Shown: positions 7,822 to 29,657, numbered from the stretch's first letter. The stretch is 64,000 nucleotides of DNA from a virus (IMGVR_UViG_3300044796_000056:12221-76220), one strand, 5' to 3'. Numbers and translations are program-made. The notes: generated by a model from the letters alone, not told the origin.

Positions 7822-8278
7822 CGCACAAACAATCGCAAAAGAACTTCAAGAGATCGAACGCAAGAAGCGCGACCTTCAAGATGAACAAACTAAGCTCTAC
7901 TGGGCTTCCGAGCGCTTGAAGCGCCAAGCCAAGAAGAGCACATTGACGGCTGGTAGCTGGGTGAATGGCATAGGCCAGATCATCACGACTGGAGATCTTT
8001 GTGTTGGTGTCACGGCTAACCGAGGAGCCAAAGTCACGGTTGGTACCTTTGCAGGATTCAGAGAACGTGGTGGCAAGGTCACTTCAGTCAGTCTGAACAT
8101 CATGAAGGAAGTCTATTACTACCAGACAACCGATGGTAAGCTTCACAAGCGATATCCTCTGGTTGATGGACGTAGGAACTACAGCATCTCTTACTCCAGA
8201 ATCAAGAAGCAAGAGATCCGCCGACAGTCATTCACACAGATGCGGGTTTACAAGATCCAACCGACGCAGACAGATTAA
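7811..8278 (+). CDS. Basic hypothetical protein, paralog of 8626-9150
   Basis: Shared N..G.II..GD....T...G motif and C-terminal RR......R.Y. Confidence 0.75.
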   Translation: MTRDAQTIAKELQEIERKKRDLQDEQTKLYWASERLKRQAKKSTLTAGSWVNGIGQIITTGDLCVGVTANRGAKVTVGTFAGFRERGGKVTSVSLNIMKEVYYYQTTDGKLHKRYPLVDGRRNYSISYSRIKKQEIRRQSFTQMRVYKIQPTQTD

Positions 8279-8361
8279 CGCGGCTGGATTAGCAGCCAAA
8301 CGGACGCCACACCGTCTGAGAGCCCAAGACCGGTTAAGGGTGCAGGAAATGTGGCACTGAT

Positions 8362-8602
8362 TCAACAAGTCGACCTAACGCGGCAGATAAGGATGTTTGT
8401 CGAGGAAGTTCGCGACTGGCGCAGAGGACGAGTAGGAGCGAAAGCGACAAACTACCGTGATACAGCCAGCAATCTAAACAGAACCAGGGAATCCTTTGCT
8501 TATTGGTTCGGGTTAGAGCACCCACTCAACGGAGTGGGATTGATCGAAAGGTCTTTAGGCAAATGTTAGGATAGAACAGAATCGCGGCTACGGACTTGTT
8601 GA
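8362..8602 (+). ncRNA. rnpB: RNase P RNA, compact, reduced specificity domain
   Basis: P1 TCAACAAGTC/GACTTGTTGA; P2 CCTAAC/GTTAGG; GAGGAAGTTCGCGA and AACAGAATCGCGGCTAC forming P4; P5 CTGGC/GCCAG; P6 GCAGAGGA/TCCTTTGC; P15/P16. Confidence 0.85.
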
Positions 8603-8625
8603 TAATTTATTAAGATGGAGTTAAT

Positions 8626-9150
8626 ATGGCATTGCGCAAACCAGTTGAACTTCCCTATGAGAATGATCTAGGTCACATCATCAATGTTGGTGATAAGGTC
8701 TTGATCGTAACTACCGGCTACAGTCACAGCGTCTCGGTACGCATGGGCACCTACCTGGGCAAGATCCGCGACGACAAGGACAGCGATTACGAATCTGGTT
8801 GTGTCGTGATGGTAGATGAAGAGCGCAGGGTTCTCCGTCACAAGGAAACCAATGAGGAGCTCGACTGGGAGAAACACATCGAACCGGCTACCGGTCCACG
8901 TCCTGAGTATCCCACACTACACCATGTGCAATGGCTGAGCAGAGTTCGTCTGACTGATGAACAGAACAAAGAGAATGCTGAACGCCAGGCAGCGCACAAG
9001 GTTGCCACCGATCTGTATAATGCTAAGCAGGTGGAAGTGATGAAGAACTTCCACCACGTCTATGAACCATACACTCGGCGCACAACTTTGCAGCGGAACC
9101 GGATCTATCCAGTGAACATGGGTCTCAAAGAGTTCATCCGACAGATCTAA
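8626..9150 (+). CDS. Hypothetical protein, paralog of 7811-8278
   Basis: GGAG SD; NDLGHIINVGDKVLIVTTG motif. Confidence 0.8.
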   Translation: MALRKPVELPYENDLGHIINVGDKVLIVTTGYSHSVSVRMGTYLGKIRDDKDSDYESGCVVMVDEERRVLRHKETNEELDWEKHIEPATGPRPEYPTLHHVQWLSRVRLTDEQNKENAERQAAHKVATDLYNAKQVEVMKNFHHVYEPYTRRTTLQRNRIYPVNMGLKEFIRQI

Positions 9151-9165
9151 TAAATATCTGATAAC

Positions 9166-9240
9166 GCTCTGTAAGTGTTACCGGTAGCACAGTTGTTTCG
9201 TAAGCAACAGGCTAGGGTTCGACTCCCTAACAGAGCACCA
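9166..9240 (+). tRNA. tRNA-Thr(CGT)
   Basis: GTTGT-TT CGT AA-GCAAC, ACCA. Confidence 0.9.
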
Positions 9241-13644: not shown

Positions 13645-14517
13645 ATGTCATTCTCACCCATGCTCGCGGACAACGCACCGAAAGTGCTCAAGTATCCGCT
13701 CCTGGCTTCCTCCAAGCTTGACGGCATCCGATGTACCGTGATCAACGGTGTGGCCATGAGCCGCTCCTTCAAACCGCTGCCCAACCAACACATCCAAAAG
13801 ATGCTGTCGGAAGGCTTCGACGGTTTGGACGGTGAATTGATCGTCGGTCCGGTCGGCGCGAAGGACGTCTTCAACAAGACCACCAGCGCCGTCATGCGCC
13901 GTGAAGGCACTCCGGACTTCGTGTTCTACGTGTTCGACAACATCTACGCGGGCGACGGTGTACCTTTCTGCGAGCGCTATGAATCGCTCCTGAAGATGGA
14001 TATCCCGGCTCCTGGTCAAGTGCTCCGGCACAACCTGATCACCAACGAAGACGAGCTCAATGCCTATGAGTCCAGCGTGCTGGCCAATGGCTTGGAGGGT
14101 CTCATCGTTCGTGATCCGCAGGGTCCGTACAAGAATGGCCGCAGCACTGCCAAGCAGGGCTGGATGCTGAAGATCAAACGTTTCACCGACTCGGAAGCTG
14201 AAATCATCGACTTCCAAGAGGAAATGGAGAATGGCAACGTGGCGACGAAGGATGCCTTCGGTCGCACGGAACGCTCCAGCCACCAGGACAACCTGATCCC
14301 GAAAGGCACCCTTGGTGCGCTCGTGGTCAAGGACATCAAGACTGGCGTCAAGTTCAACATTGGAACCGGCTTCACAGCTGCTATGCGCAAGGACTACTGG
14401 GACAGCCGCAAGAAATTGATGGGCAAGCTAGTCAAGTACAAGTTCTTTGAGGTCGGCACCAAGGACGCTCCGAGGCATCCAGTTTTTATAGGATTTCGGG
14501 ACAGGATGGACCTGTGA
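13645..14517 (+). CDS. ATP-dependent DNA ligase, minimal
   Basis: KLDGIR motif I, DGEL, EGLIVR, KIKRF, C-terminal OB with RHPVF. Confidence 0.95.
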   Translation: MSFSPMLADNAPKVLKYPLLASSKLDGIRCTVINGVAMSRSFKPLPNQHIQKMLSEGFDGLDGELIVGPVGAKDVFNKTTSAVMRREGTPDFVFYVFDNIYAGDGVPFCERYESLLKMDIPAPGQVLRHNLITNEDELNAYESSVLANGLEGLIVRDPQGPYKNGRSTAKQGWMLKIKRFTDSEAEIIDFQEEMENGNVATKDAFGRTERSSHQDNLIPKGTLGALVVKDIKTGVKFNIGTGFTAAMRKDYWDSRKKLMGKLVKYKFFEVGTKDAPRHPVFIGFRDRMDL

Positions 14518-17691: not shown

Positions 17692-18579
17692 ATGGATGAA
17701 TTGCGTGAGTTCGTTGAGAACAACCCTAAGCTGGTGACTCGTCGTGAGTCTGTCCGGTATCCGGGTCTATACGTCATCAAATACACCCGAAAGGTGTTCT
17801 ACGATGCTCTCTGGAATGACGTTCTAGAAGAGTGTCGAGGTCTTGTTGTCGATGCGGAATGGAACCGCGTCGTCAATCCCTTCCGAAAGATCTACAATCG
17901 CGGCGAGCGGGGAACGGATTTCCCGCTTGACGAGCCGGTGGTAGCCGTCCAGAAAGTCAATGGCTTCATGGCGGGAGCAACTTACATTGAAGGATATGGA
18001 GTCGTGGTGTCAACTACCGGCTCCCTGGACTCACCATTTGTGGAGATCGCGGAACGTCATCTGCGGTCCAAGATTTGTAATTGGATAGACAAGGTTGGTC
18101 ACAAGATCACTTGGCTATTCGAGATTTGTGATCCCTCTGACCCGCACATCATCCAGGAGACTCCTGGCGCCTATCTAATAGGCGCGCGTTACGTGACCGG
18201 TGATATGATGTCAGAGGGAGCGCTAGATTCTATGGCTCCTGGTATGGGTGCAATGCGGCCTAACCATCTGCGTATACCGTTCGAGTCCGTCCTGTTGGCT
18301 ATGACCAACTGCCGACTCGAAGGCTTTGTGGTTCACTCCCATCGCCTGCAGAAGTCACTGAAGATCAAGTCACCATACTATTTGGTGACCAAGTTCCTTG
18401 CTCGTATGCGGGCGGAACGTTTCCTGGAGCGGATCAATGATCCAAAGCTGCGGGAGACCGTCGATGAGGAGTTCTACCCTCTGTTGGACCATTTATGGGC
18501 CAACCAGATATCATTCAACCTACTAAACGATGAGCAGGCCAAGATTGCCGTCATCCGTAAATTCTTGGAGACTATGTAA
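17692..18579 (+). CDS. RNA ligase (T4 Rnl1-like)
   Basis: ECRG, KVNG, FEI, EGFVV, KIKSPYY. Confidence 0.88.
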   Translation: MDELREFVENNPKLVTRRESVRYPGLYVIKYTRKVFYDALWNDVLEECRGLVVDAEWNRVVNPFRKIYNRGERGTDFPLDEPVVAVQKVNGFMAGATYIEGYGVVVSTTGSLDSPFVEIAERHLRSKICNWIDKVGHKITWLFEICDPSDPHIIQETPGAYLIGARYVTGDMMSEGALDSMAPGMGAMRPNHLRIPFESVLLAMTNCRLEGFVVHSHRLQKSLKIKSPYYLVTKFLARMRAERFLERINDPKLRETVDEEFYPLLDHLWANQISFNLLNDEQAKIAVIRKFLETM

Positions 18580-18733: not shown

Positions 18734-19354
18734 ATGGATAAGTCTTTGATGCCTGTTGGTTTGGGTATGATTCCTGCCGTCATCGAATCCGGTGCGCGCG
18801 GTGAACGAACTTATGACATCTATTCACGCTTGATGCGTGAACGGGTCGTCTTTCTGGTTGGACCTATCGACGACTGGTGCGCCAACGTGCTGGTCGCCCA
18901 GCTGCTGTATTTGGAGCATGAGAGTCCTGAGCAGACCATCAGTCTCTACATCAATTCTCCAGGCGGCTCAGTAACATCAGGTCTGGCAATCTATGACACG
19001 ATGAAGTTCATCCGCGCACCCATCAGCACGATCTGTATCGGTGAGGCGGCAAGCATGGGAGCATTCATCCTGGCGTCAGGTACTAAGGGCAAGCGCTTCA
19101 TTCTACCCAACGCCGAGGTTATGATTCACCAGCTGTCCGCCGGTTTCGCCGGTCAGGGAACCGACATCGCTATCCACGCGGCTATGATTGCTCGCACCAA
19201 AGCGAAGCTGAACCGCATCATGGCGACCGAAACTGGTCACACTGCAGAAGAGGTAGAGAAGGCTTCTGAGCGTGATAATTTCTTGACCGCTGAAGAGGCT
19301 TTGGGTTTTGGTATCGTTGACCGAATCGTGACGAGAGCTCCTTCTGAAGACTAA
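18734..19354 (+). CDS. clpP: ATP-dependent Clp protease proteolytic subunit
   Basis: YDIYSRL, YINSPGG, AASMGA (Ser), MIHQ (His), ERD. Confidence 0.97.
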   Translation: MDKSLMPVGLGMIPAVIESGARGERTYDIYSRLMRERVVFLVGPIDDWCANVLVAQLLYLEHESPEQTISLYINSPGGSVTSGLAIYDTMKFIRAPISTICIGEAASMGAFILASGTKGKRFILPNAEVMIHQLSAGFAGQGTDIAIHAAMIARTKAKLNRIMATETGHTAEEVEKASERDNFLTAEEALGFGIVDRIVTRAPSED

Positions 19355-19610: not shown

Positions 19611-20127
19611 ACTATTCCCTTCATTATAAACGGTTGGTAACGAGGTCTCCTCAGAGGAAACCCAAGGAGGGTTACTTTGAACGGCACCATATCGTCCCGA
19701 AGTGTATGGATGGATCAGATTTGGTTTCCAATCTGGTCTATCTAACACCAGAAGAACACTATGTCGCTCATCAGTTGCTGGTAAAGATGTATCCGGAAAT
19801 CTGGGATTGATACGAGCCGCTAACGTGATGAATAAGGGTAGCGGTAACAGTAAAACATATGGTTGGCTTCGACGGCAACTTAGCTCGGCGCAAACAGGTA
19901 GCAAGAATCATATGTTTGGGGTTAGAGTATTTGGAAAAGTCAATCCTAATTTCGGTCGTAAATGGTCTGAAGAAAAGAAACAGGCTATGAGCGCCCTAAA
20001 GAAAGGTTGTCGTGATAGTAGTGAAACGAAAGCAAAGAAGAGTAAGTCTAAGAGCGCCACCCATAGGGCGAACATAGCCAAGAGCAAGTTAGGTAATATA
20101 AATGGCTTCAAGCGGAAAGTAGCATGA
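19607..20127 (+). pseudogene. HNH homing endonuclease with NUMOD-like tail, frameshifted near 19795
   Basis: ERHHIVPKC..GSD..NLV.LTPEEHYVAHQLL continues in another frame with YGWLR and basic repeats. Confidence 0.8.
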
Positions 20128-20693
20128 GTATCTGGTTCACGAGCGATTTGCATTTTTCTCATAAGAATATAGCCAAGTTCTGTCCGAAGACTCGACCGCA
20201 TTCTGATCCTATGGAAATGGACAACCATATGATTAATCGCTGGAATACTCAAGTTAAACCAGAAGATACGGTTTGGGCACTCGGAGATATTTTCTTCTGC
20301 CAGGCCGACCGGGCCAAGACCATCATGGAGCGCCTGAATGGGCACAAGCATCTGGTCTACGGCAACCACGACCAAGTGATACGCGGAGACAAGGTCCTTC
20401 AGGGCATGTTCGACTCAATCCATGAGTACAAGGAAATACACGTTGACGGCAACATGTTGTGCTTGTTCCATTATCCTATCTATGAGTGGAACAAGATCCA
20501 CCACAACGCCATCCACTTACATGGTCACATCCATGAGCGGTTGAGCGGCGTGCCGGGCAAGATCTTGAACGTCTGTGTTGACTCACCTACGTTCGGTGAC
20601 GGCTCTTATTCTTTGTACCACAGTGACATCGTTTTGGCGGCGGCTAGGAAGTTGCCTGAGCGTCCTCATGGTTCAGCCGGGAAGACACAATAA
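20124..20693 (+). CDS. Calcineurin-like metallophosphoesterase
   Basis: SDLHF, LGD, GNHD, HGHIH. Confidence 0.93.
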   Translation: MSIWFTSDLHFSHKNIAKFCPKTRPHSDPMEMDNHMINRWNTQVKPEDTVWALGDIFFCQADRAKTIMERLNGHKHLVYGNHDQVIRGDKVLQGMFDSIHEYKEIHVDGNMLCLFHYPIYEWNKIHHNAIHLHGHIHERLSGVPGKILNVCVDSPTFGDGSYSLYHSDIVLAAARKLPERPHGSAGKTQ

Positions 20694-21292
20694 TGGCACG
20701 ACGTAATTACATGGTGGACGTTGAGACCCTGGACGTGGAAAGTACGTCCGTGGTCCTCTCCTGCGCCATCATCGAGTTCAGCCTGGATGAAGTTCCAGAC
20801 TATCAGAAGATCTTCGGCCGCGCTCTCTTTGTCAAGTTTGACGTGGAAGAGCAGGTCGCCAAGTTTAAGCGCACGATCAAGAAGAGCACTCTTGAGTGGT
20901 GGGCGACTCAGCCTCTGAGCACCCGCACAAAGAGTTTGGTGCCGTCAACCTTTGATGTGGATGCGGCTACCGGCTTACAGATGATTCGCGACTATGCGGA
21001 CCTGGACTCCAATTCTGACAAGAACCGGAACGTCAAGTTCTGGGCACGTGGTATCCTTGACCAGAGCACTCTGGATAGCCTGAGCAACGCAACGAGCGGT
21101 GATATCCTGGTCCCGTACAACAATTGGTTTGATGTACGCACGTTCTTGTTCGCTCTGTACGAGAGTGAGAGCGGCTACATTACAGTGCCTGGTTTCGACC
21201 ACAGGAACGTGGTCACCAAGCACGACCCGGTGCATGACTGTGCCAACGATTTGATGATGATTTTGAGTGGCAATTTGCCCAAGGCAGAATAA
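20693..21292 (+). CDS. dexA: 3'-5' exonuclease, DexA-like
   Basis: DVETL, WW..Q, WARG..D, HDPVHDC. Confidence 0.8.
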   Translation: MARRNYMVDVETLDVESTSVVLSCAIIEFSLDEVPDYQKIFGRALFVKFDVEEQVAKFKRTIKKSTLEWWATQPLSTRTKSLVPSTFDVDAATGLQMIRDYADLDSNSDKNRNVKFWARGILDQSTLDSLSNATSGDILVPYNNWFDVRTFLFALYESESGYITVPGFDHRNVVTKHDPVHDCANDLMMILSGNLPKAE

Positions 21293-21293
21293 G

Positions 21294-21794
21294 TTGAAGT
21301 ATTTGTTTCTGGACATCGACGGTGTCCTCAATAATTATCCATGGTATGAAAAGATGTACAAGGAGAATCCTCCTTCCATCCGTAATAACATGACACCTGA
21401 AGAGCGCGCCCTGATTGACTTTGATCCGGCCAACGTTGCTCAGCTGGAACGCATCGTCGTTTCTCAACCAGACCTTTGGATCATCATATCTTCTTCCTGG
21501 CGTCGTCTCCATTCTTTGGCCGAAATACGCGGCTACATAATCAATAAGGGTGGAATAGAAGCCGGCAAGCGTGTCAAGGATAAGACGACCCACCAGCCGG
21601 CATTGTTCAAGATTCGCGGTCAAGAGATCAATCACTGGTTGGAGAATTATTCCGACGAGCCGCACCCTTATGTAATCTTGGATGACGACAGTGACATGCT
21701 TCCTGAACAGAAAGCCGGTCATTTTGTACAGACACATTATTTGGGTGGACTAACACCGGAATTGGCAGACGAAGCCATCAAGATCTTAGGGTAG
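21294..21794 (+). CDS. HAD phosphatase (RNA-repair associated HAD family)
   Basis: FLDIDGVLN, ISSSWR, RG.EI..W, VILDD; start approximate. Confidence 0.88.
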   Translation: MKYLFLDIDGVLNNYPWYEKMYKENPPSIRNNMTPEERALIDFDPANVAQLERIVVSQPDLWIIISSSWRRLHSLAEIRGYIINKGGIEAGKRVKDKTTHQPALFKIRGQEINHWLENYSDEPHPYVILDDDSDMLPEQKAGHFVQTHYLGGLTPELADEAIKILG

Positions 21795-23896: not shown

Positions 23897-24099
23897 ACCA
23901 TTATCATGATCAGTTTCCTTTCAGGATTCAACTGAACCGGGATTACTATCCAAAGATATCGGAGATCTACCAGCAACTTCGTACGTTCGGTGAAATAGGC
24001 GGCGAGTGGACGGCATATGATATGTTCGGGTATCAGCATATCTACTTCAAGAAGGAAGAAGATTTGAAGAACTTCCAGGAATGGGTCAAGACGCTGTGA
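23893..24099 (+). CDS. Hypothetical protein
   Basis: ATGA coupling. Confidence 0.6.
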   Translation: MNHYHDQFPFRIQLNRDYYPKISEIYQQLRTFGEIGGEWTAYDMFGYQHIYFKKEEDLKNFQEWVKTL

Positions 24100-24521
24100 A
24101 AGAGAAGAATTGGCAGGCTTGGAAGTATCTCATGGTCAAAGACAATGAGCACGGCCAATCTGGTTTGTATGCGATGATTGATATTCCATACAAGACAGTC
24201 ATAGGCGCATTTGGTGGCAAGATAGAATGCGTCAGTCCTATACCTGAAAGGATCACCAACTCTATCATTCAGATTGCGATCAACCGAGAGCAGGACATAC
24301 TTTTGATCCTGACCGGAGAGAAAGATTTTCGGTGGGAGGGTATCAGCTATATGAACCACTCCTGTGAACCTAACGCCAACATGGTTGCTCAAACTATAAT
24401 CGTTGCCAATCGAGACATCAAACGTGGCGAAGAGATTACGGTAGACTACAACAGTTGGAACTTCATTGGTGAGGGTGTGCCTTGCTGGTGCCCAAAGTGT
24501 GATGGTAAGGTGACCATATGA
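24081..24521 (+). CDS. SET-domain methyltransferase
   Basis: GLYA, YMNHSCEPN, GEEITVDY, post-SET CxCxxC. Confidence 0.88.
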   Translation: MGQDAVKEKNWQAWKYLMVKDNEHGQSGLYAMIDIPYKTVIGAFGGKIECVSPIPERITNSIIQIAINREQDILLILTGEKDFRWEGISYMNHSCEPNANMVAQTIIVANRDIKRGEEITVDYNSWNFIGEGVPCWCPKCDGKVTI

Positions 24522-24901: not shown

Positions 24902-24977
24902 CGATGTGTAGCTCAAACTGGCTAGAGCAGGATCTCTAAAATCCAAGATCAGGGTTCGATGCCCTGCACAACGGCCA
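24902..24977 (+). tRNA. Amber-anticodon tRNA(CTA)
   Basis: CGATGTG/CACAACG, GCTC/GAGC D arm, GGAT-CT CTA AA-ATCC, CAGGG-TTCGATG-CCCTG, GCCA. Confidence 0.8.
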
Positions 24978-24993: not shown

Positions 24994-25455
24994 ATGCTAG
25001 TATCACTTGTCAAAGATCTTCATGACACACGCACATCAGTCACCACGATTGATGAAGTTCATTTGCCAAATACGGCTGTGAACACTGGTCATACCACTCC
25101 ACAGGGCTGGGCTATTTGGAGCATCGTTCCCGAGCACATCGAGCAATGGGGTAAGAAGGTTGCCGCTGAAGTCAAGGCAAAGGTAGAGGTCAAGGCCAAC
25201 ACCGTCGTCACTGAAGTCAAGACTGAAGTGAAGAAAGTCGAAGCAGAGGTTAAGGTTGCTCCAGTAAAGACTGAAGTTGCCAATGTTGCTGCTAAGGTCG
25301 AAACGGTAGCCAACACGGTTGCCACAGAAGTCAAGACTGAAGTGAAGAAGGTTGTTGCTGAAGTCAAGGCCGAAGCCAACACCGTCGTAACAGAAGTCAA
25401 AGCCGAGGCAGCTAAGGTTGTCACCGCAGTTGAGAACTTGGTCAAGAAGATCTAA
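24994..25455 (+). CDS. Low-complexity A/V/E/K repeat protein
   Basis: Repeated ANTVVTEVK units. Confidence 0.75.
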   Translation: MLVSLVKDLHDTRTSVTTIDEVHLPNTAVNTGHTTPQGWAIWSIVPEHIEQWGKKVAAEVKAKVEVKANTVVTEVKTEVKKVEAEVKVAPVKTEVANVAAKVETVANTVATEVKTEVKKVVAEVKAEANTVVTEVKAEAAKVVTAVENLVKKI

Positions 25456-25574: not shown

Positions 25575-26126
25575 ATGCCAGCATATTCTTATCTCTTGCA
25601 CCATAAACCTACAAACACATTTTACTACGGTGTTCGCTGGGCTAAAGATTGTCACCCAGATGAATTTTGGAGAACATATTTTACATCAAGTAAAAAGAAC
25701 GTTCCATTACTTCGCACACTATTTGGTGATGATAGTTTCGAGTTTGAGATCCGGAGGGTATTCAAGTCTGGTAAGAAAGCGGCAGACTGGGAACACAAAG
25801 TATTGCGTAGAATGCGCGTATTGGATAAACCCGATCTTTGGTTGAATAGGACAACAAACACATCTTGGTTATATGATATAAATCCATTCAAAGGGAAACA
25901 CCACTCAAACGAAACCAGGCAGCGTATAGCCACCACTCTTGTTCAGAAAAGCATAAGACCGCCCAATACAAGGGGTATGACTCCTTGGAATAAGGGCATC
26001 CCACATTCAGAAGAACAAAAGAAGAAAATGAGTGGAAAGAAGTGGATCAACAACGGTACTCTTGAGCGTAAAATACATAATGAAGAAAAGATACCGACCG
26101 GTTGGAAAAAAGGCAGAATGTTGTAG
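25575..26126 (+). CDS. Putative homing endonuclease (GIY-YIG-like, NUMOD3)
   Basis: YSYLL...YYGVR, YFTSSK, KGKHHSNET, PWNKG. Confidence 0.75.
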   Translation: MPAYSYLLHHKPTNTFYYGVRWAKDCHPDEFWRTYFTSSKKNVPLLRTLFGDDSFEFEIRRVFKSGKKAADWEHKVLRRMRVLDKPDLWLNRTTNTSWLYDINPFKGKHHSNETRQRIATTLVQKSIRPPNTRGMTPWNKGIPHSEEQKKKMSGKKWINNGTLERKIHNEEKIPTGWKKGRML

Positions 26127-26201
26127 AATTACATCAGAGGACCTCCCTCGTTGTAATTGACTCTTACGAAAGATTCAGTTATAATAGATGGAGACTCAAA
26201 A

Positions 26202-26906
26202 ATGATGAATTTCAAAGCAGCATTCAAAGCGTGTGCCGACGCCAAGGATATTTCCAGCGTTGACATCGTACAATACGCTATCCTTCGCGCCATGAAAGCG
26301 AAGACGGCTCAGACTATTGAGGACCGTATCAAGATAGCATCAACCTTTATCCGCCGGCACTTTCGTTCTGTGAAGAATAGAAAGATGCTCGATAATGGGG
26401 TTGATCCAGAAAGAGCGGTTAGGAGAGCGACCGAAATTACTAAGAGTGCTAAGGTCATCTGTGGCATTCTAGAAAAGAGTATGTTTACTGATGAACGTGA
26501 GCGCATCCTCTACAAAAACATCGCGGTGGCTTTATATGAGCAGTACAAGATCCCTGCGGATCTTTACACCAGACATTACGTCTACATCTTCGTGCGTCAA
26601 GATATGACGCCGGAGTATCAGCTAGTCCAGGCTAGCCATGCGGCGGCTCGCATGGGACAACGTCTAGGATCCAATGGCATTGACCAGGGCAAGTTTGATG
26701 AGTTGTATTTCAGTGTGATTGGTGTCCCTGATCTTCATGGTCTTGCCAAAGCATTGGAAGACTTCAAGCAGCGCGGTATCAAGACCTATCCGTTCATTGA
26801 GCCAGACATCGGAAACGTGATGACAGCATTCGCTTCCGACCCGGTTTGGTCACATGATCGTAAGGGATTGCTATCTTACAAGAGATTGGTCTTCAAGAAG
26901 GACTAA
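26202..26906 (+). CDS. Protein with C-terminal Pth2-like peptidyl-tRNA hydrolase domain
   Basis: YIFVRQDM....QLVQASHAA...F.EPD....TA....P. Confidence 0.72.
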   Translation: MMNFKAAFKACADAKDISSVDIVQYAILRAMKAKTAQTIEDRIKIASTFIRRHFRSVKNRKMLDNGVDPERAVRRATEITKSAKVICGILEKSMFTDERERILYKNIAVALYEQYKIPADLYTRHYVYIFVRQDMTPEYQLVQASHAAARMGQRLGSNGIDQGKFDELYFSVIGVPDLHGLAKALEDFKQRGIKTYPFIEPDIGNVMTAFASDPVWSHDRKGLLSYKRLVFKKD

Positions 26907-26910
26907 ATAG

Positions 26911-27193
26911 GTTTGAATGATTGTAAACGCCTGACTAAAGGCATGTTGGACTGGGGTTCGATTCCCCACGGTTCCACCAAATTTCAGGACCATGCTAGAG
27001 GGTCCATTATGGGGCCGATCGGTTTCGACAGCGTGAGTAATACACCAAGTGCAATCCGGTATGCTACGACCGTAACAGTGCAAAACCATAAATGCATCTA
27101 ACGATGACATCTATGACACCGTAGAGTTGGCTCTAGCAGCCTAACCCTCGGGTCTGAGTTTCGGCCGCTTCCTTGTAAACAGAATAAGCGGCC
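26911..27193 (+). ncRNA. ssrA: Circularly permuted two-piece tmRNA
   Basis: Acceptor piece ending TGGGG-TTCGATT-CCCCA-CGGTTCC-ACCA (26979), intervening hairpin, coding piece from GGGGCCG (27011), pk1, tag ASNDDIYDTVELALAA* at 27094-27144. Confidence 0.93.
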
Positions 27194-27282
27194 ACTCTTT
27201 AACTTAATCAGGCCAGTTTTACTCTTACAGTTTCCAGGCGTATAATAGATAATGTGAACTCCCTTAAACAAGGAAATACATT

Positions 27283-27948
27283 ATGAAAACCGCGCAGTGG
27301 TTATACCGGCTGTCGATGGTTATTATGGTTGGAGTGTTGATCTACGCATTGTATCAGACTTATTTGACTGTGAAGTGGTGGCACAATTTCCACCAGCAAC
27401 ATCAACAGATGGAACAAACCATCACTGATCAATCGGGTAAGATCACAGAACTGGAACGGAAAGAAAAGTTCTACGAAGATATAGTCGTGACTCAACAGAA
27501 TGAGATCGCGGCGAAAGCAGCCGCCAAGAAAGCCAAGGCCGACTTTGTGGCTTCTGAATTGAGATGTCTTGCGGATAATACGTATGCAGAGGCCGGGTTT
27601 GAACCGGCTGATGGCCAGTTGGCTGTAGCAACGGTGGTGATGAACCGGGTGGTTGATCCTCAGTATCCAAAGACAGTTTGTGGTGTTGTTTACGAGCGGC
27701 ACTTGAATAAAATGAACAACAAGATCGTTTGTCAGTTCAGTTGGACGTGTAAGCCTCGCCATCGTATGGCCACGGCAGTTTACAAGTCCATTATGGAGAT
27801 GGTGAAGGGTGTTTATTTCAAACATGTACGCAGTGACGAAGTTGCCGACGCAACCCTCTACCACGCCGACTATATCCAGACTCCTAACTGGGCAACCGAT
27901 GAAACCAAGCTGGCTCAGATCGGTCATCACATTTTCTATTCCCACTGA
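27283..27948 (+). CDS. Cell wall hydrolase (SleB/Hydrolase_2)
   Basis: CLA.N.Y.EA..E...GQ.AVA.V..NRV, CQFSW, IG.HIFY; N-terminal TM. Confidence 0.93.
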   Translation: MKTAQWLYRLSMVIMVGVLIYALYQTYLTVKWWHNFHQQHQQMEQTITDQSGKITELERKEKFYEDIVVTQQNEIAAKAAAKKAKADFVASELRCLADNTYAEAGFEPADGQLAVATVVMNRVVDPQYPKTVCGVVYERHLNKMNNKIVCQFSWTCKPRHRMATAVYKSIMEMVKGVYFKHVRSDEVADATLYHADYIQTPNWATDETKLAQIGHHIFYSH

Positions 27949-28271: not shown

Positions 28272-28534
28272 AATCGATCATCCACGTCAATGCCCAGCTG
28301 ATCAAGCGCAATATTAAGAACAAGACCACTCATCCGGTGGTCCGCGTTCAGCAGGGTTCCAAACAACGTTACTGCTCGGAAGCCATCATAGATGGTCCTA
28401 GCAGGATCGTATACAGTCCAGAGCGACCGCTAAGTTGTGGCGCCAGGCTTTGGATTGAGACAGAGGCAGACGTCACTCTCGTTGACGAGACAACCTACGC
28501 AAAGATGCGGGAGATCATGAATGATAAGAATTGA
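28268..28534 (+). CDS. Conserved phage hypothetical protein
   Basis: IHVN...I.GPS..VYSP..PL.CGARLWIET. Confidence 0.7.
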   Translation: MKSIIHVNAQLIKRNIKNKTTHPVVRVQQGSKQRYCSEAIIDGPSRIVYSPERPLSCGARLWIETEADVTLVDETTYAKMREIMNDKN

Positions 28535-29657
28535 TCCGGCTCCTAAGCTCGATTATTCCCAGGTGATGTTGGTTCCCCGTTATAGCCAAGATGGGCCCTC
28601 ATCCCGCAATAGTGTATACCTAAAAAACAAGGATTACATCATCCCTGTAATCGCCGCCAACATGGATGGTGTCGGTACATTTGAGATGGCCCGCGAACTT
28701 TGTCGCTGGGACTTGATGACGGCACTCCAGAAGCACTACACGTTAGAAGAACTGTTAGAGTTCTATCTTCATACTCTTGAAGAAGGCTATACCAAGAACG
28801 TGGTCTATTCCATGGGGATCAATCAACCTGATTTGATCAAATGGAAAAACTTCTATGAAGAGTTAACGGCTCGCGGTCACGTTATTCCTACGGTCTGTGT
28901 TGATGTGGCTAATGGCTATACAGAAGCAACGGCGGATGCCATACGCTGGATCAAGTCTTCATTCAACACAACCATCATGGCTGGTAATGTGGTCACCAGA
29001 GAGGGAGTCTTCCGTCTCGCCGAGGCCGGTGCCAACATAATCAAGATTGGTGTGGGTCCGGGCTCTGTTTGTACGACCCGTAAGCTGACAGGTACAGGTT
29101 ATCCTCAATTTAGCGCAGTACTGGAATGCGTCCAGGCAGCCAAGGCATGGGTAGAGAAGTTCCCATTCCCTATTACACATGGACCTCGTGTGATGCAACC
29201 TCCCAAGATTGTAGCAGACGGTGGTATTACATGTCCTGGTGATGTGGCCAAAGCCTTTGCGGCCGGTGCCGATTACGTCATGATCGGCGGTATGTTCGCT
29301 GGTCATGATGAGGGTGGTGGCACGCCATGTGATGCCCTAGGCAATGAGAAATACATTCAAGGTGCTACCGGTACGATTTTCAACTATGCGCCAATGTCTC
29401 ATCGTAAGTTTTATGGTATGGCCAGCAAGTGTGCTCAAGATAAACACAATGGCGGTGTGGCTGAGTATCGAGCCAGTGAAGGTAAAGAGGTCGTGGTGCC
29501 CTATAGGGGCAAGGTCTCCAACACTGTAAAGGAATTGCTGGGCGGTCTACGGAGCGCCTGTGCCTATCAGGGATGCCAGCATCTAGAGGACATAAGTAGT
29601 GATGTCCAATTCATCCAGGTAGCCAACCAGACAAATAATATCTTTGGGGCATCATAA
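28521..29657 (+). CDS. guaC: GMP reductase
   Basis: [40 protein letters not shown]. Confidence 0.93.

What the first reader, a model, noticed from the sequence alone, without database searches (positions are those of the whole stretch)
26202..27193. Ribosome-rescue kit: Pth2-like hydrolase next to a permuted tmRNA, plus ClpP
Seen: acceptor piece precedes coding piece, G3-U70 Ala identity, tag ending LAA; the adjacent gene has a Pth2-like domain; clpP lies 7 kb upstream. Known: two-piece tmRNAs occur in Alphaproteobacteria and a few other lineages, need RNase P, and LAA is a ClpXP degron. Inference: a largely self-contained rescue, tag and degrade pathway against mRNA/tRNA-cleaving defences. 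SmpB and ClpX are not seen here.
Basis: partly seen in the sequence, partly recalled or inferred. Interest (0 to 1): 0.8.

Follow-up and report, generated by a model that had tools for sequence, protein, structure and literature searches.

The report
Phage Pth2-like gene plus two-piece tmRNA
A T4-like phage from peat carries a small operon made of a divergent tRNA-hydrolase-like gene and its own split tmRNA. The operon lies beside a stop-codon-reading tRNA and a ClpP protease gene, and this layout is kept in its relatives; it looks like a host-dependent toolkit for clearing stalled ribosomes, not a self-sufficient one.

Summary
There is a circularly permuted tmRNA (Rfam RF04321, 129 bits; G3·U70, A73, CCA; tag ASNDDIYDTVELALAA). 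The 234-aa ORF just upstream has a C-terminal half with the Pth2 fold (VIA Z 13.2; the top 12 Foldseek hits are all Pth2). A cellular-type ClpP with an intact catalytic triad lies 6.9 kb upstream.

New here:
- The ORF and the tmRNA form one unit behind a strong sigma-70-type promoter.
- This ORF-then-tmRNA order is kept in all nine dereplicated two-domain relatives (down to 33% identity) and in two short forms.
- The family's most frequent neighbour is an amber-suppressor tRNA, here 1.2 kb upstream.
- A sister branch of the family carries an early in-frame stop codon that matches the neighbouring suppressor's anticodon. This scan had already reported that pattern on other DNA.

Limits:
- The protein misses Pfam PTH2. 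It lacks the canonical Lys (Tyr139 instead) and a 7-residue active-site loop.
- SmpB and ClpX are absent from the 76-kb contig and from a 98%-complete relative, so the kit depends on the host.
- The anti-defence purpose is untested.

Phage two-piece tmRNAs and phage Pth2 genes are already published. The conserved linkage is a new variant of a known kind.

The parts
26157..26185 (+). sigma-70-type promoter, TTGACT-17 nt-TATAAT (11 of 12 matches), just upstream of the Pth2-like gene
   Evidence: Consensus scan. The -35 and -10 hexamers are kept in close relatives L001 and L002-L004 in alignment A3. Function is inferred.
26202..26906 (+). 234-aa two-domain protein (P0001). Residues 1-~120 form a helical domain of unknown kind. 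Residues ~122-232 form a divergent Pth2-fold domain. GGAG lies 8 nt before the ATG.
   Evidence: Translation. The family has 387 representative clusters. AF2 model, pLDDT 88. Pth2 fold from Foldseek and VIA-align. hhalign against canonical PTH2. The N-domain has only generic helical matches, Z 6.5 or less.
26919..26979 (+). tmRNA acceptor piece (3' half of the tRNA-like domain, T-arm, ...CGGUUCC-A-CCA 3' end)
   Evidence: Rfam RF04321 alignment; sequence.
26980..27010 (+). intervening segment removed on maturation; contains the hairpin GGACC...GGUCC
   Evidence: Loop region of the Rfam alignment; sequence. Processing is inferred from what is known of two-piece tmRNAs (PMC3985003).
27011..27190 (+). 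tmRNA coding piece. The 5' GGGGCCG pairs with the acceptor 3' strand (G3·U70). The tag ORF is 27094-27144 (ASNDDIYDTVELALAA plus TAA). A terminal hairpin lies at 27162-27190. The 3' end is approximate; ARAGORN extends the gene to 27235.
24902..24977 (+). amber-suppressor tRNA (anticodon CUA, G73, encoded CCA, A3·A70 mismatch), 1,225 nt upstream of the Pth2-like gene
   Evidence: ARAGORN; Rfam tRNA 41 bits; sequence. A suppressor tRNA lies within 3 kb on the same strand in about two thirds of dereplicated family loci.
25575..26126 (+). GIY-YIG/NUMOD3 homing endonuclease inserted between the suppressor-tRNA block and the operon. It is a passenger, not part of the kit.
   Evidence: Pfam NUMOD3 and SegE_GIY-YIG, PHROG 314. 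The tRNA-to-gene gap is 564 nt in L001 against 1,225 nt here.
18734..19354 (+). cellular-type ClpP proteolytic subunit with an intact Ser-His-Asp triad
   Evidence: PF00574 E 2.4e-74. NF001368 296 bits, above its cut-off. E 2e-75 to solved ClpP structures. Relative G001 has ClpP at a similar distance.

Best explanation
The stretch is a two-gene transcription unit of a T4-like, tRNA-rich phage. The contig holds 37 tRNAs, and public peat metagenome runs contain it. A sigma-70-type promoter drives a two-domain protein whose C-terminal half is a divergent Pth2-type tRNA-ester hydrolase. A circularly permuted tmRNA gene follows 13 nt after its stop codon.

Proposed mechanism:
- Host enzymes (RNase P and 3'-end nucleases) cut the precursor into an acceptor piece and a coding piece.
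- Host AlaRS charges the reassembled tRNA-like domain, which has G3·U70 and A73.
- With host SmpB and EF-Tu, the tmRNA enters ribosomes stuck at mRNA ends.
- It adds a 16-residue tag ending ALAA, which sends the product to ClpXP or ClpAP. The phage adds ClpP subunits of its own.
- The Pth2-like protein frees tRNAs from peptidyl- or N-blocked aminoacyl-tRNAs that fall off or are left over, which keeps the phage's large tRNA pool usable.
- The nearby amber-suppressor tRNA is probably part of the same logic. Read-through of UAG stops is a known source of non-stop ribosomes that need tmRNA.

Shown here: the identity of the parts, their order, and the conservation of that order. Inferred: processing, charging, tagging, hydrolase activity, substrates and biological purpose.
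For: Parts: tmRNA; Pth2 fold; ClpP; promoter.

Sequence link to PTH2: the XacN1 member of this family passes the Pfam PF01981 cut-off (27.2 bits against 23), and the GAP32 and ME3 members score E 0.002-0.005. hhalign of the family against canonical PTH2 is colinear and keeps R132, D134, Q143, H146, D202, G204, T208 and P214.

Synteny: a permuted tmRNA lies 13-600 nt downstream on the same strand in the window and in L001, L002, L003, L004, L005, L006, L007/8 and L009/10. That is all nine dereplicated two-domain relatives, down to 33% protein identity. It also holds in short forms L011 and L013. All their tags end (A/R)LAA. In the family tree, all 11 tmRNA-adjacent members fall on one side of a 96/94-supported split.

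Suppressor tRNA: one lies within 3 kb on the same strand in 27 of about 42 dereplicated loci, and in several loci it is the only tRNA in 20 kb.

Literature: suppressor read-through creates tmRNA substrates (Ueda 2002, as cited in PMC3985003). PTH2 in jumbo phages has been proposed for ribosome rescue (PMC7824862).

Relatives: G001, G002 and G003 also encode an ArfB-like RF-1-domain ORF, and G001 has ClpP.
Against: - The protein has no Pfam or NCBIfam PTH2 hit, and the family profile finds no Pth2 chain in the PDB by sequence.
- The Lys that is invariant in my alignment of 22 canonical PTH2 proteins (the GK motif) is Tyr139 here, and the 7-residue loop after D-x-G is deleted. The chemistry or the substrate may therefore differ.
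- XacN1 and GAP32 carry a canonical PTH2 in addition to a member of this family, which argues that the two are not redundant.
- SmpB and ClpX are missing from the contig and from the 98%-complete relative, so nothing works without host factors.
- ClpP was found in only 2 of the 5 related records searched; the other three are 47-69% complete.
- There is no expression or processing evidence.
- No TAG-containing target gene for the suppressor tRNA was found in this contig or in relative G001.
Confidence: 0.55

Rival explanations
1. The Pth2-fold protein is not a general peptidyl-tRNA hydrolase. It is a dedicated partner of the phage's stop-decoding RNAs (suppressor tRNA and/or tmRNA). It might be a specific deacylase or regulator that sets how much charged suppressor tRNA or Ala-tmRNA is available, or a binder of their acceptor ends, with the N-terminal domain giving specificity.
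For: - Active-site changes: Lys replaced by Tyr139, and a loop deleted.
- It coexists with a canonical PTH2 in XacN1 and GAP32.
- It neighbours suppressor tRNAs tightly, in several loci as the only tRNA within 20 kb.
- The sister branch carries an early in-frame stop that matches the neighbour's anticodon: TAG with CUA in 22 loci, including cultured phages GAP32 and ME3, and TGA with UCA in L047.
- An extra conserved N-terminal domain has no informative fold match.
Against: No biochemical data exist. Most Pth2 signature residues are retained, which fits ordinary hydrolase chemistry. The N-terminal domain is neither necessary nor sufficient for tmRNA adjacency: short forms L011 and L013 have a tmRNA, while two-domain forms L012, L015 and L016 do not.
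Confidence: 0.25
2. The kit is mainly an anti-defence device. It would repair translation after host abortive-infection systems cut tRNAs or mRNAs, or acetylate aminoacyl-tRNAs. The Pth2-like enzyme would clear N-acetyl-aminoacyl-tRNAs made by GNAT toxins, and the tmRNA would rescue ribosomes on cleaved mRNAs.
For: RNA-repair-type genes lie on the same strand 5-9 kb upstream: an Rnl1-like RNA ligase at 17692-18579, a 3'-5' exoribonuclease at 20693-21292 and HAD_SAK_2 at 21267-21794. Pth detoxifies tRNA-acetylating toxins in bacteria (PMC9241777, title and abstract only, listed). Iyer et al. place phage PTH2 in the context of tRNA-cleavage repair.
Against: No defence or counter-defence signature was tested or seen at the locus. 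The most conserved partner is a suppressor tRNA, which this model does not explain. The repair genes are not adjacent to the operon.
Confidence: 0.1
3. The adjacency has no functional meaning. The ORF, tmRNA, suppressor tRNA and ClpP simply share the accessory tRNA region of a T4-like genome.
For: Homing endonucleases and many small ORFs show that the region is plastic. ClpP is 6.9 kb away with unrelated genes in between.
Against: The ORF-then-tmRNA order, strand and short spacing persist across relatives whose proteins share only 33-47% identity. The suppressor tRNA recurs next to the family in distant phages.
Confidence: 0.05

Closest known systems
Phage-encoded two-piece tmRNA (ssrA) of marine and aquatic myophages such as OM43 phage Melnitz and pelagimyophages (Buchholz et al. 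2022, PMC9004378)
   Same: A circularly permuted tmRNA in a T4-like phage, behind an early-type promoter. It has a complete tRNA-like domain and a proteolysis tag, and no phage smpB is reported.
   Different: There is no glutamine riboswitch in the 3' part (Rfam E-value scan). This tmRNA scores best against betaproteobacterial-type models. It is coupled to an upstream Pth2-like ORF, which a term search of that paper did not turn up. The runs that hold this DNA are from peat, not seawater.
PTH2 (PF01981) peptidyl-tRNA hydrolases of archaea and eukaryotes, and their canonical copies in jumbo phages (RaK2 ORF188, PMC3622015; Iyer et al. 2021, PMC7824862)
   Same: Same fold (Z 13.2), and the same VR-x-D...Q-x-x-HA and D-x-G...T...P signature positions. 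Both have a proposed role in ribosome rescue and tRNA recycling.
   Different: It fails the Pfam model. The invariant Lys is Tyr139, and a 7-residue loop is deleted. An extra 120-residue N-terminal helical domain is present. In XacN1 and GAP32 this family sits beside a canonical PTH2 as a second paralog.
Bacterial trans-translation: ssrA with smpB, and ClpXP/ClpAP degradation of ALAA-tagged proteins (reviewed in PMC3985003)
   Same: tmRNA with Ala identity elements, an ALAA-ending tag, and a ClpP subunit.
   Different: SmpB and the unfoldases are not phage-encoded. In bacteria tmRNA is not paired with a Pth2-type gene.
Suppressor-tRNA-gated Pth2-like genes of large phages. This is an unpublished pattern noted earlier by this scan (e1-5361998, e1-5821679 and others). 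I saw it independently, before reading those notes.
   Same: The same protein family (sister branch), with a suppressor tRNA close by on the same strand.
   Different: The window's gene has no early in-frame stop, carries an added N-terminal domain, and is followed by a tmRNA. The gated branch has none of the tmRNA-adjacent members.

Membership tests
Two-piece (circularly permuted) tmRNA, Rfam RF04321 | Covariance-model score above the curated gathering score | tested here: met
   129.2 bits against 47, E 5.9e-25, full model 1-213. Found independently by ARAGORN.
Two-piece (circularly permuted) tmRNA, Rfam RF04321 | The acceptor piece (3' half with CCA) is encoded upstream of the coding piece | tested here: met
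   Acceptor piece 26919-26979 ends in CCA; the coding piece starts at 27011.
Two-piece (circularly permuted) tmRNA, Rfam RF04321 | Alanine identity: G3·U70 in the acceptor stem and discriminator A73 | tested here: met
   G27013·U26973 and A26976, read from the sequence and the Rfam pairing.
Two-piece (circularly permuted) tmRNA, Rfam RF04321 | Tag reading frame with an Ala resume codon, a hydrophobic ALAA-type end and a stop codon | tested here: met
   GCA at 27094...ELALAA, TAA at 27142. The tags of relatives also end (A/R)LAA.
Two-piece (circularly permuted) tmRNA, Rfam RF04321 | SmpB partner encoded in the same genome | tested here: not met
   No PF01668 match in the 76-kb contig or in five related records, one of them 98% complete. 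SmpB would have to come from the host. The contig is only 44% complete.
Two-piece (circularly permuted) tmRNA, Rfam RF04321 | Processing into two pieces, charging and tagging activity | not testable with these tools
   Only assembled contigs were available from the RNA run.
PTH2 peptidyl-tRNA hydrolase (Pfam PF01981) | Match to the family HMM above its cut-off | tested here: not met
   No hit at E 0.1 or better for this protein, and none in the six-frame search of the contig at E 1 or better. The XacN1 homolog of the same family does pass, at 27.2 bits against 23.
PTH2 peptidyl-tRNA hydrolase (Pfam PF01981) | Pth2 alpha/beta fold | tested here: met
   Foldseek ranks 1-12 are all Pth2 structures, probability 1.00. 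VIA-align gives 1wn2 Z 13.2, rmsd 2.4 Å, 108 residues.
PTH2 peptidyl-tRNA hydrolase (Pfam PF01981) | Invariant Lys of the G-K motif before the Q-x-x-H-A helix. From my own knowledge of the S. solfataricus Pth2 mutagenesis literature, which I did not read here, this is the catalytic Lys. | tested here: not met
   G19 and K20 are invariant in 22 canonical sequences. hhalign places Tyr139 at that position, and there is no Lys or Arg between D134 and Q143.
PTH2 peptidyl-tRNA hydrolase (Pfam PF01981) | Invariant Asp of the D-x-G-x-T motif and His of Q-x-x-H-A | tested here: met
   D202, G204 and H146 align to canonical D103, G105 and H27 and are invariant in alignment A1. The T-E-F-x-G loop that follows is deleted.
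PTH2 peptidyl-tRNA hydrolase (Pfam PF01981) | Hydrolysis of peptidyl- or N-acyl-aminoacyl-tRNA | not testable with these tools
   This needs an enzyme assay or complementation of a pth mutant.
ClpP (PF00574 / NCBIfam NF001368) | HMM score above cut-off and the Ser-His-Asp triad | tested here: met
   249.6 bits for PF00574 and 296 against 249 for NF001368. Ser107 (GEAASMG), His132 (MIHQ) and Asp181 (ERDNF) are visible in the alignment to 7dft.
ClpP (PF00574 / NCBIfam NF001368) | Cognate unfoldase ClpX encoded alongside | tested here: not met
   No TIGR00382 match in the contig or in four relatives. ClpA was not searched.
Suppressor-tRNA-gated Pth2-like gene (pattern from earlier scan notes) | In-frame stop codon within the first ~6 codons, matching a neighbouring suppressor tRNA | tested here: not met
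   The window gene runs open from ATG 26202, and the nearest upstream in-frame stop is TAA at 26154-26156. The suppressor tRNA is present 1,225 nt upstream. Gated members fall in the sister branch.

The most novel reading that the evidence does not exclude
This Pth2-fold family is a dedicated protein partner of RNAs that decode 'no sense codon' situations, namely nonsense-suppressor tRNAs and tmRNA. On this reading, the ungated two-domain form in the window's branch acts directly on the phage tmRNA. It might control its charged or peptidyl state, or stand in for part of SmpB's role. That would let the phage run its own trans-translation channel, separate from the host's, to cope with the read-through its suppressor tRNA causes. 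The sister branch would achieve the same coupling by making the enzyme's own synthesis depend on suppression.
Probability: 0.15. Interest if true: 0.8.

Novelty: new variant of a known kind. Interest (0 to 1): 0.58.

Why it matters
Phage tmRNAs and phage Pth2 genes have each been reported, but their purpose is guesswork. It is also unclear why standard-code phages carry suppressor tRNAs.

This locus ties three things together by conserved gene order across distant relatives: an unannotated Pth2-fold family (387 representative clusters, no Pfam hit for most members tested here), a two-piece tmRNA, and an amber-suppressor tRNA.

That gives a concrete, testable hypothesis. Read-through by a phage suppressor tRNA would be paired with phage-supplied means of clearing the resulting stalled ribosomes and blocked tRNAs.

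It also shows that the family has two exclusive layouts, tmRNA-linked or stop-codon-gated, which narrows what the enzyme is likely to act on. If the enzyme proves specific for suppressor tRNA or tmRNA, it would be a new kind of translation regulator.

Tried and rejected
- Megablast of the locus against GenBank phages found nothing.
- A profile search of the family against PDB sequences gave no Pth2 hit, only chance helical matches.
- hhalign of the family against canonical PTH2 is weak (E 0.014, low probability). I use it only for residue mapping, supported by the fold match.
- The ESM Atlas gave no usable hit for the N-terminal domain. VIA-align gave the N-domain only generic helical-bundle matches, Z 6.5 or less.
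- TAG recoding of this phage is rejected for the sampled part. Code 11 gives 74% plus-strand coverage, TAG ends 6 of 57 long ORFs, and the baseplate genes are uninterrupted.
- I searched the contig and the 98%-complete relative G001 for other M-x(1-6)-TAG-gated ORFs. There were no more candidates than for the TGA and TAA controls.
- Rfam finds no RNase P RNA at 8000-9200 and no riboswitch in or near the tmRNA.
- Sequencing runs: a peat metagenome and a peat metatranscriptome hold the stretch, but only as long contigs that cover it in one piece. They say nothing about transcription, ends or processing, and the DNA run may be the source of this contig.
- The hairpin at 27162-27190 folds no better than shuffled sequence (z -1.1) and lacks a U-tract, so its role as a terminator is unproven.
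- The first literature search timed out. A later full-text search on in-frame amber codons and suppressor tRNAs in jumbo phages turned up no paper describing the stop-gating; I ran no search aimed at the Pth2-tmRNA pairing. Absence from this library is not proof.

Full report
**What the window is.** The window is bases 12221-76220 of a 76,220-bp IMG/VR viral contig that CheckV rates 44% complete. It carries T4-type genes: a gp32-like SSB, a baseplate hub with lysozyme, and wedge subunits. All are uninterrupted under the standard code. ARAGORN finds 32 tRNAs plus a tmRNA in the window, and 37 tRNAs plus the tmRNA on the whole contig. Public runs that hold the DNA come from peat.

- **tmRNA.**
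  - ARAGORN reports a permuted tmRNA at 26887-27235 with tag ASNDDIYDTVELALAA. Rfam's permuted-tmRNA model matches 26919-27144 over its full length at 129 bits against a gathering score of 47, and the betaproteobacterial tmRNA model gives 92 bits.
  - Reading the sequence: the acceptor piece 26919-26979 ends ...CGGUUCC-A-CCA. A 31-nt spacer with a hairpin follows. The coding piece begins GGGGCCG at 27011.
  - The two strands form the acceptor stem with G3·U70 and discriminator A73.
  - The tag frame starts at GCA 27094 and ends ...LALAA-TAA at 27144.
- **ClpP.** The gene at 18734-19354 is a cellular-type subunit, not a prohead protease. It scores 296 bits on NF001368 (cut-off 249), against only 86 bits on the ClpP-related head-maturation protease model. 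Ser, His and Asp are in place.
- **SmpB and ClpX.** Both are absent from the contig.

**The adjacent protein.**

- *The gene.* The ORF 26202-26906 (234 aa, GGAG 8 nt upstream of the ATG) has no Pfam or NCBIfam match.
- *The family.* It belongs to a sizeable unannotated family with 387 representative clusters at E 1e-3 or better. The family comes in a two-domain form of about 230 aa and a single-domain form of about 100-140 aa. tblastn against GenBank phage records also finds it in cultured jumbo phages, where it is annotated as hypothetical.
- *Fold.* An AF2 model built from 24 relatives has pLDDT 88. Residues 122-229 superpose on Pth2 structures. The N-terminal 120 residues form a helical domain with only generic matches.
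- *Sequence bridge to PTH2.* The XacN1 member, which is fused to a different N-terminal domain that looks HD-like by eye, passes the Pfam PTH2 cut-off. The GAP32 and ME3 members score just below it.
- *Residue mapping.* Mapping against 22 canonical PTH2 proteins shows that R132, D134, Q143, H146, D202, G204, T208 and P214 are kept.
- *Differences from canonical PTH2.* The invariant canonical Lys is Tyr139, and the 7-residue loop after D-x-G is missing. XacN1 and GAP32 carry a canonical PTH2 as well.
- *Reading.* 'Pth2-like' is right at the level of fold and superfamily. The protein is not a canonical PTH2, and its substrate may differ.

**Is the neighbourhood meaningful?**

- *Promoters.* A strong sigma-70-type promoter (TTGACT-17-TATAAT, 26157-26185) sits just before the ORF. 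The next such promoter lies after the tmRNA, at 27218-27246. The ORF and tmRNA therefore look like one transcription unit.
- *Related loci.* I fetched 59 related viral loci. ARAGORN found a permuted tmRNA directly downstream in six of them. Infernal found five more that ARAGORN had missed.
- *tmRNA synteny.* After dereplication, every two-domain relative close to the window (L001, L002, L003, L004, L005, L006, L007/8, L009/10; 33-78% identity) has the tmRNA 13-600 nt downstream on the same strand. So do two short forms (L011, L013). All their tags end (A/R)LAA.
- *Other rescue genes in relatives.* Relative G001 (98% complete) also has ClpP about 9.4 kb upstream of its copy, but no SmpB or ClpX. 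Relatives G001-G003 further encode a ~140-aa RF-1-domain (ArfB-like) ORF. The rescue theme is real in this lineage, but it depends on the host.

- *Suppressor tRNA.* The commonest neighbour of this family is a nonsense-suppressor tRNA. A CUA-anticodon tRNA lies within 3 kb on the same strand in about 27 of 42 dereplicated loci, and in several it is the only tRNA within 20 kb. In the window it is at 24902-24977. A homing endonuclease has been inserted between it and the operon.
- *Early in-frame stop.* In many single-domain members, the gene begins M-x(1-4)-STOP and then continues in frame into the conserved first strand. The stop is TAG where the neighbouring tRNA is CUA, including cultured phages GAP32 and ME3. 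It is TGA in L047, where the neighbour is a UCA tRNA.
- *Earlier notes of this scan.* I found the early-stop pattern before consulting the scan's earlier notes, which describe the same 'suppressor-gated Pth2-like gene' on other genomes. It is not new to this scan, and it is not a feature of this window.
- *Tree of the Pth2-like domain.* A 96/94-supported split separates two branches. One holds all 11 tmRNA-adjacent, ungated members, including the window. The other holds all 23 stop-gated members.
- *No gated genes here.* I found no excess of TAG-gated ORFs in this contig or in relative G001, and no sign of TAG recoding.

**Mechanism.**

- *Best-supported reading.* This is a host-dependent translation clean-up operon. 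The tmRNA would be processed, Ala-charged and delivered by host factors. It would rescue ribosomes at mRNA ends and mark the products for Clp proteolysis. The Pth2-like enzyme would release tRNAs from peptidyl- or N-blocked aminoacyl esters.
- *Why the suppressor tRNA fits.* Read-through of stop codons is a documented source of tmRNA substrates (Ueda 2002, cited in PMC3985003).
- *Main rival.* The altered active site, the coexistence with canonical PTH2, and the stop-codon gating in the sister branch keep a serious rival alive: that the enzyme acts specifically on the suppressor tRNA or the tmRNA, not on bulk peptidyl-tRNA.

**Novelty.** Phage two-piece tmRNAs are published: 53 unique ones among isolate genomes (PMC9004378). 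Phage PTH2 genes are published too (PMC7824862, PMC3622015). Neither the two phage PTH2 papers nor the phage tmRNA paper that I term-searched describes the conserved pairing of this divergent Pth2-fold family with a tmRNA and a suppressor tRNA; I ran no search aimed at that pairing. I rate it a new variant of a known kind, of moderate interest. All functional steps remain to be tested.

Noticed in passing
window 24902-24977: Amber-suppressor tRNA (CUA) with an A3·A70 mismatch in the acceptor stem, G73 and an encoded CCA. The 31 distinct suppressor tRNAs next to this gene family have very different acceptor stems and discriminators, so no common amino-acid identity is evident.
   Followed up: partly
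L021, L024, L025, L028, L029, L031, L033-L035, L043, L044, L046, L047, L049, L050, L053, L054, L056-L059; L060 (GAP32) and L062 (ME3): Single-domain members of the family begin M-x(1-4)-STOP and continue in frame. The stop is TAG next to CUA tRNAs and TGA next to a UCA tRNA (L047). GenBank annotations of GAP32_397 and ME3 gp266 start after the stop.
   Followed up: yes
window 25575-26126 and 19702-20127: A GIY-YIG/NUMOD3 homing endonuclease lies between the suppressor-tRNA block and the operon; the corresponding gap in L001 is too short (564 nt against 1,225 nt) to hold one. A second NUMOD3 ORF lies just after clpP.
   Followed up: partly
window 13645-14517, 17692-18579, 20693-21292, 21267-21794: A cluster of nucleic-acid repair genes on the same strand: an ATP-dependent DNA ligase, an Rnl1-like RNA ligase, an Rv2179c-like 3'-5' exoribonuclease, and an HAD_SAK_2 ('Swiss Army Knife' RNA repair) domain protein.
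   Followed up: no
L075, L076, L077 (relatives G002, G003, G001): Three related phage records encode a 132-145-aa RF-1-domain protein, the size of the ribosome-rescue factor ArfB/YaeJ. The window's contig has none.
   Followed up: no
L066:961-1800 (Xanthomonas phage XacN1 ORF364): Here the Pth2-like domain is fused to a different N-terminal domain that looks HD-like by eye (WHDIGKP motif). This member passes the Pfam PTH2 cut-off. XacN1 also has a canonical PTH2 (L063).
   Followed up: partly
L001-L005 upstream of the gene (alignment A3); window ~26128-26152: A conserved element lies just upstream of the promoter -35 in relatives (CCTGACACGTAG...CACGAGG-TCCT-CCTTGTG, which can form a 7-bp hairpin). 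Only its 3' part survives in the window, next to the homing-endonuclease insertion.
   Followed up: no
A permissive Rfam scan of the region gives no RNase P match at E 1 or better.
   Followed up: partly
window 24081-24521, 24994-25455, 27283-27948, 28521-29657: Neighbouring genes: a SET-domain protein, a 153-aa protein made of K/V/E/A-rich repeats, a membrane-anchored cell-wall hydrolase (Hydrolase_2), and a GMP-reductase/IMPDH-family enzyme.
   Followed up: no
L002, L003, L004, L006, L007: ARAGORN missed permuted tmRNAs that Infernal (RF04321) finds at 90-134 bits directly downstream of the Pth2-like gene. ARAGORN-only surveys therefore undercount phage two-piece tmRNAs.
   Followed up: yes
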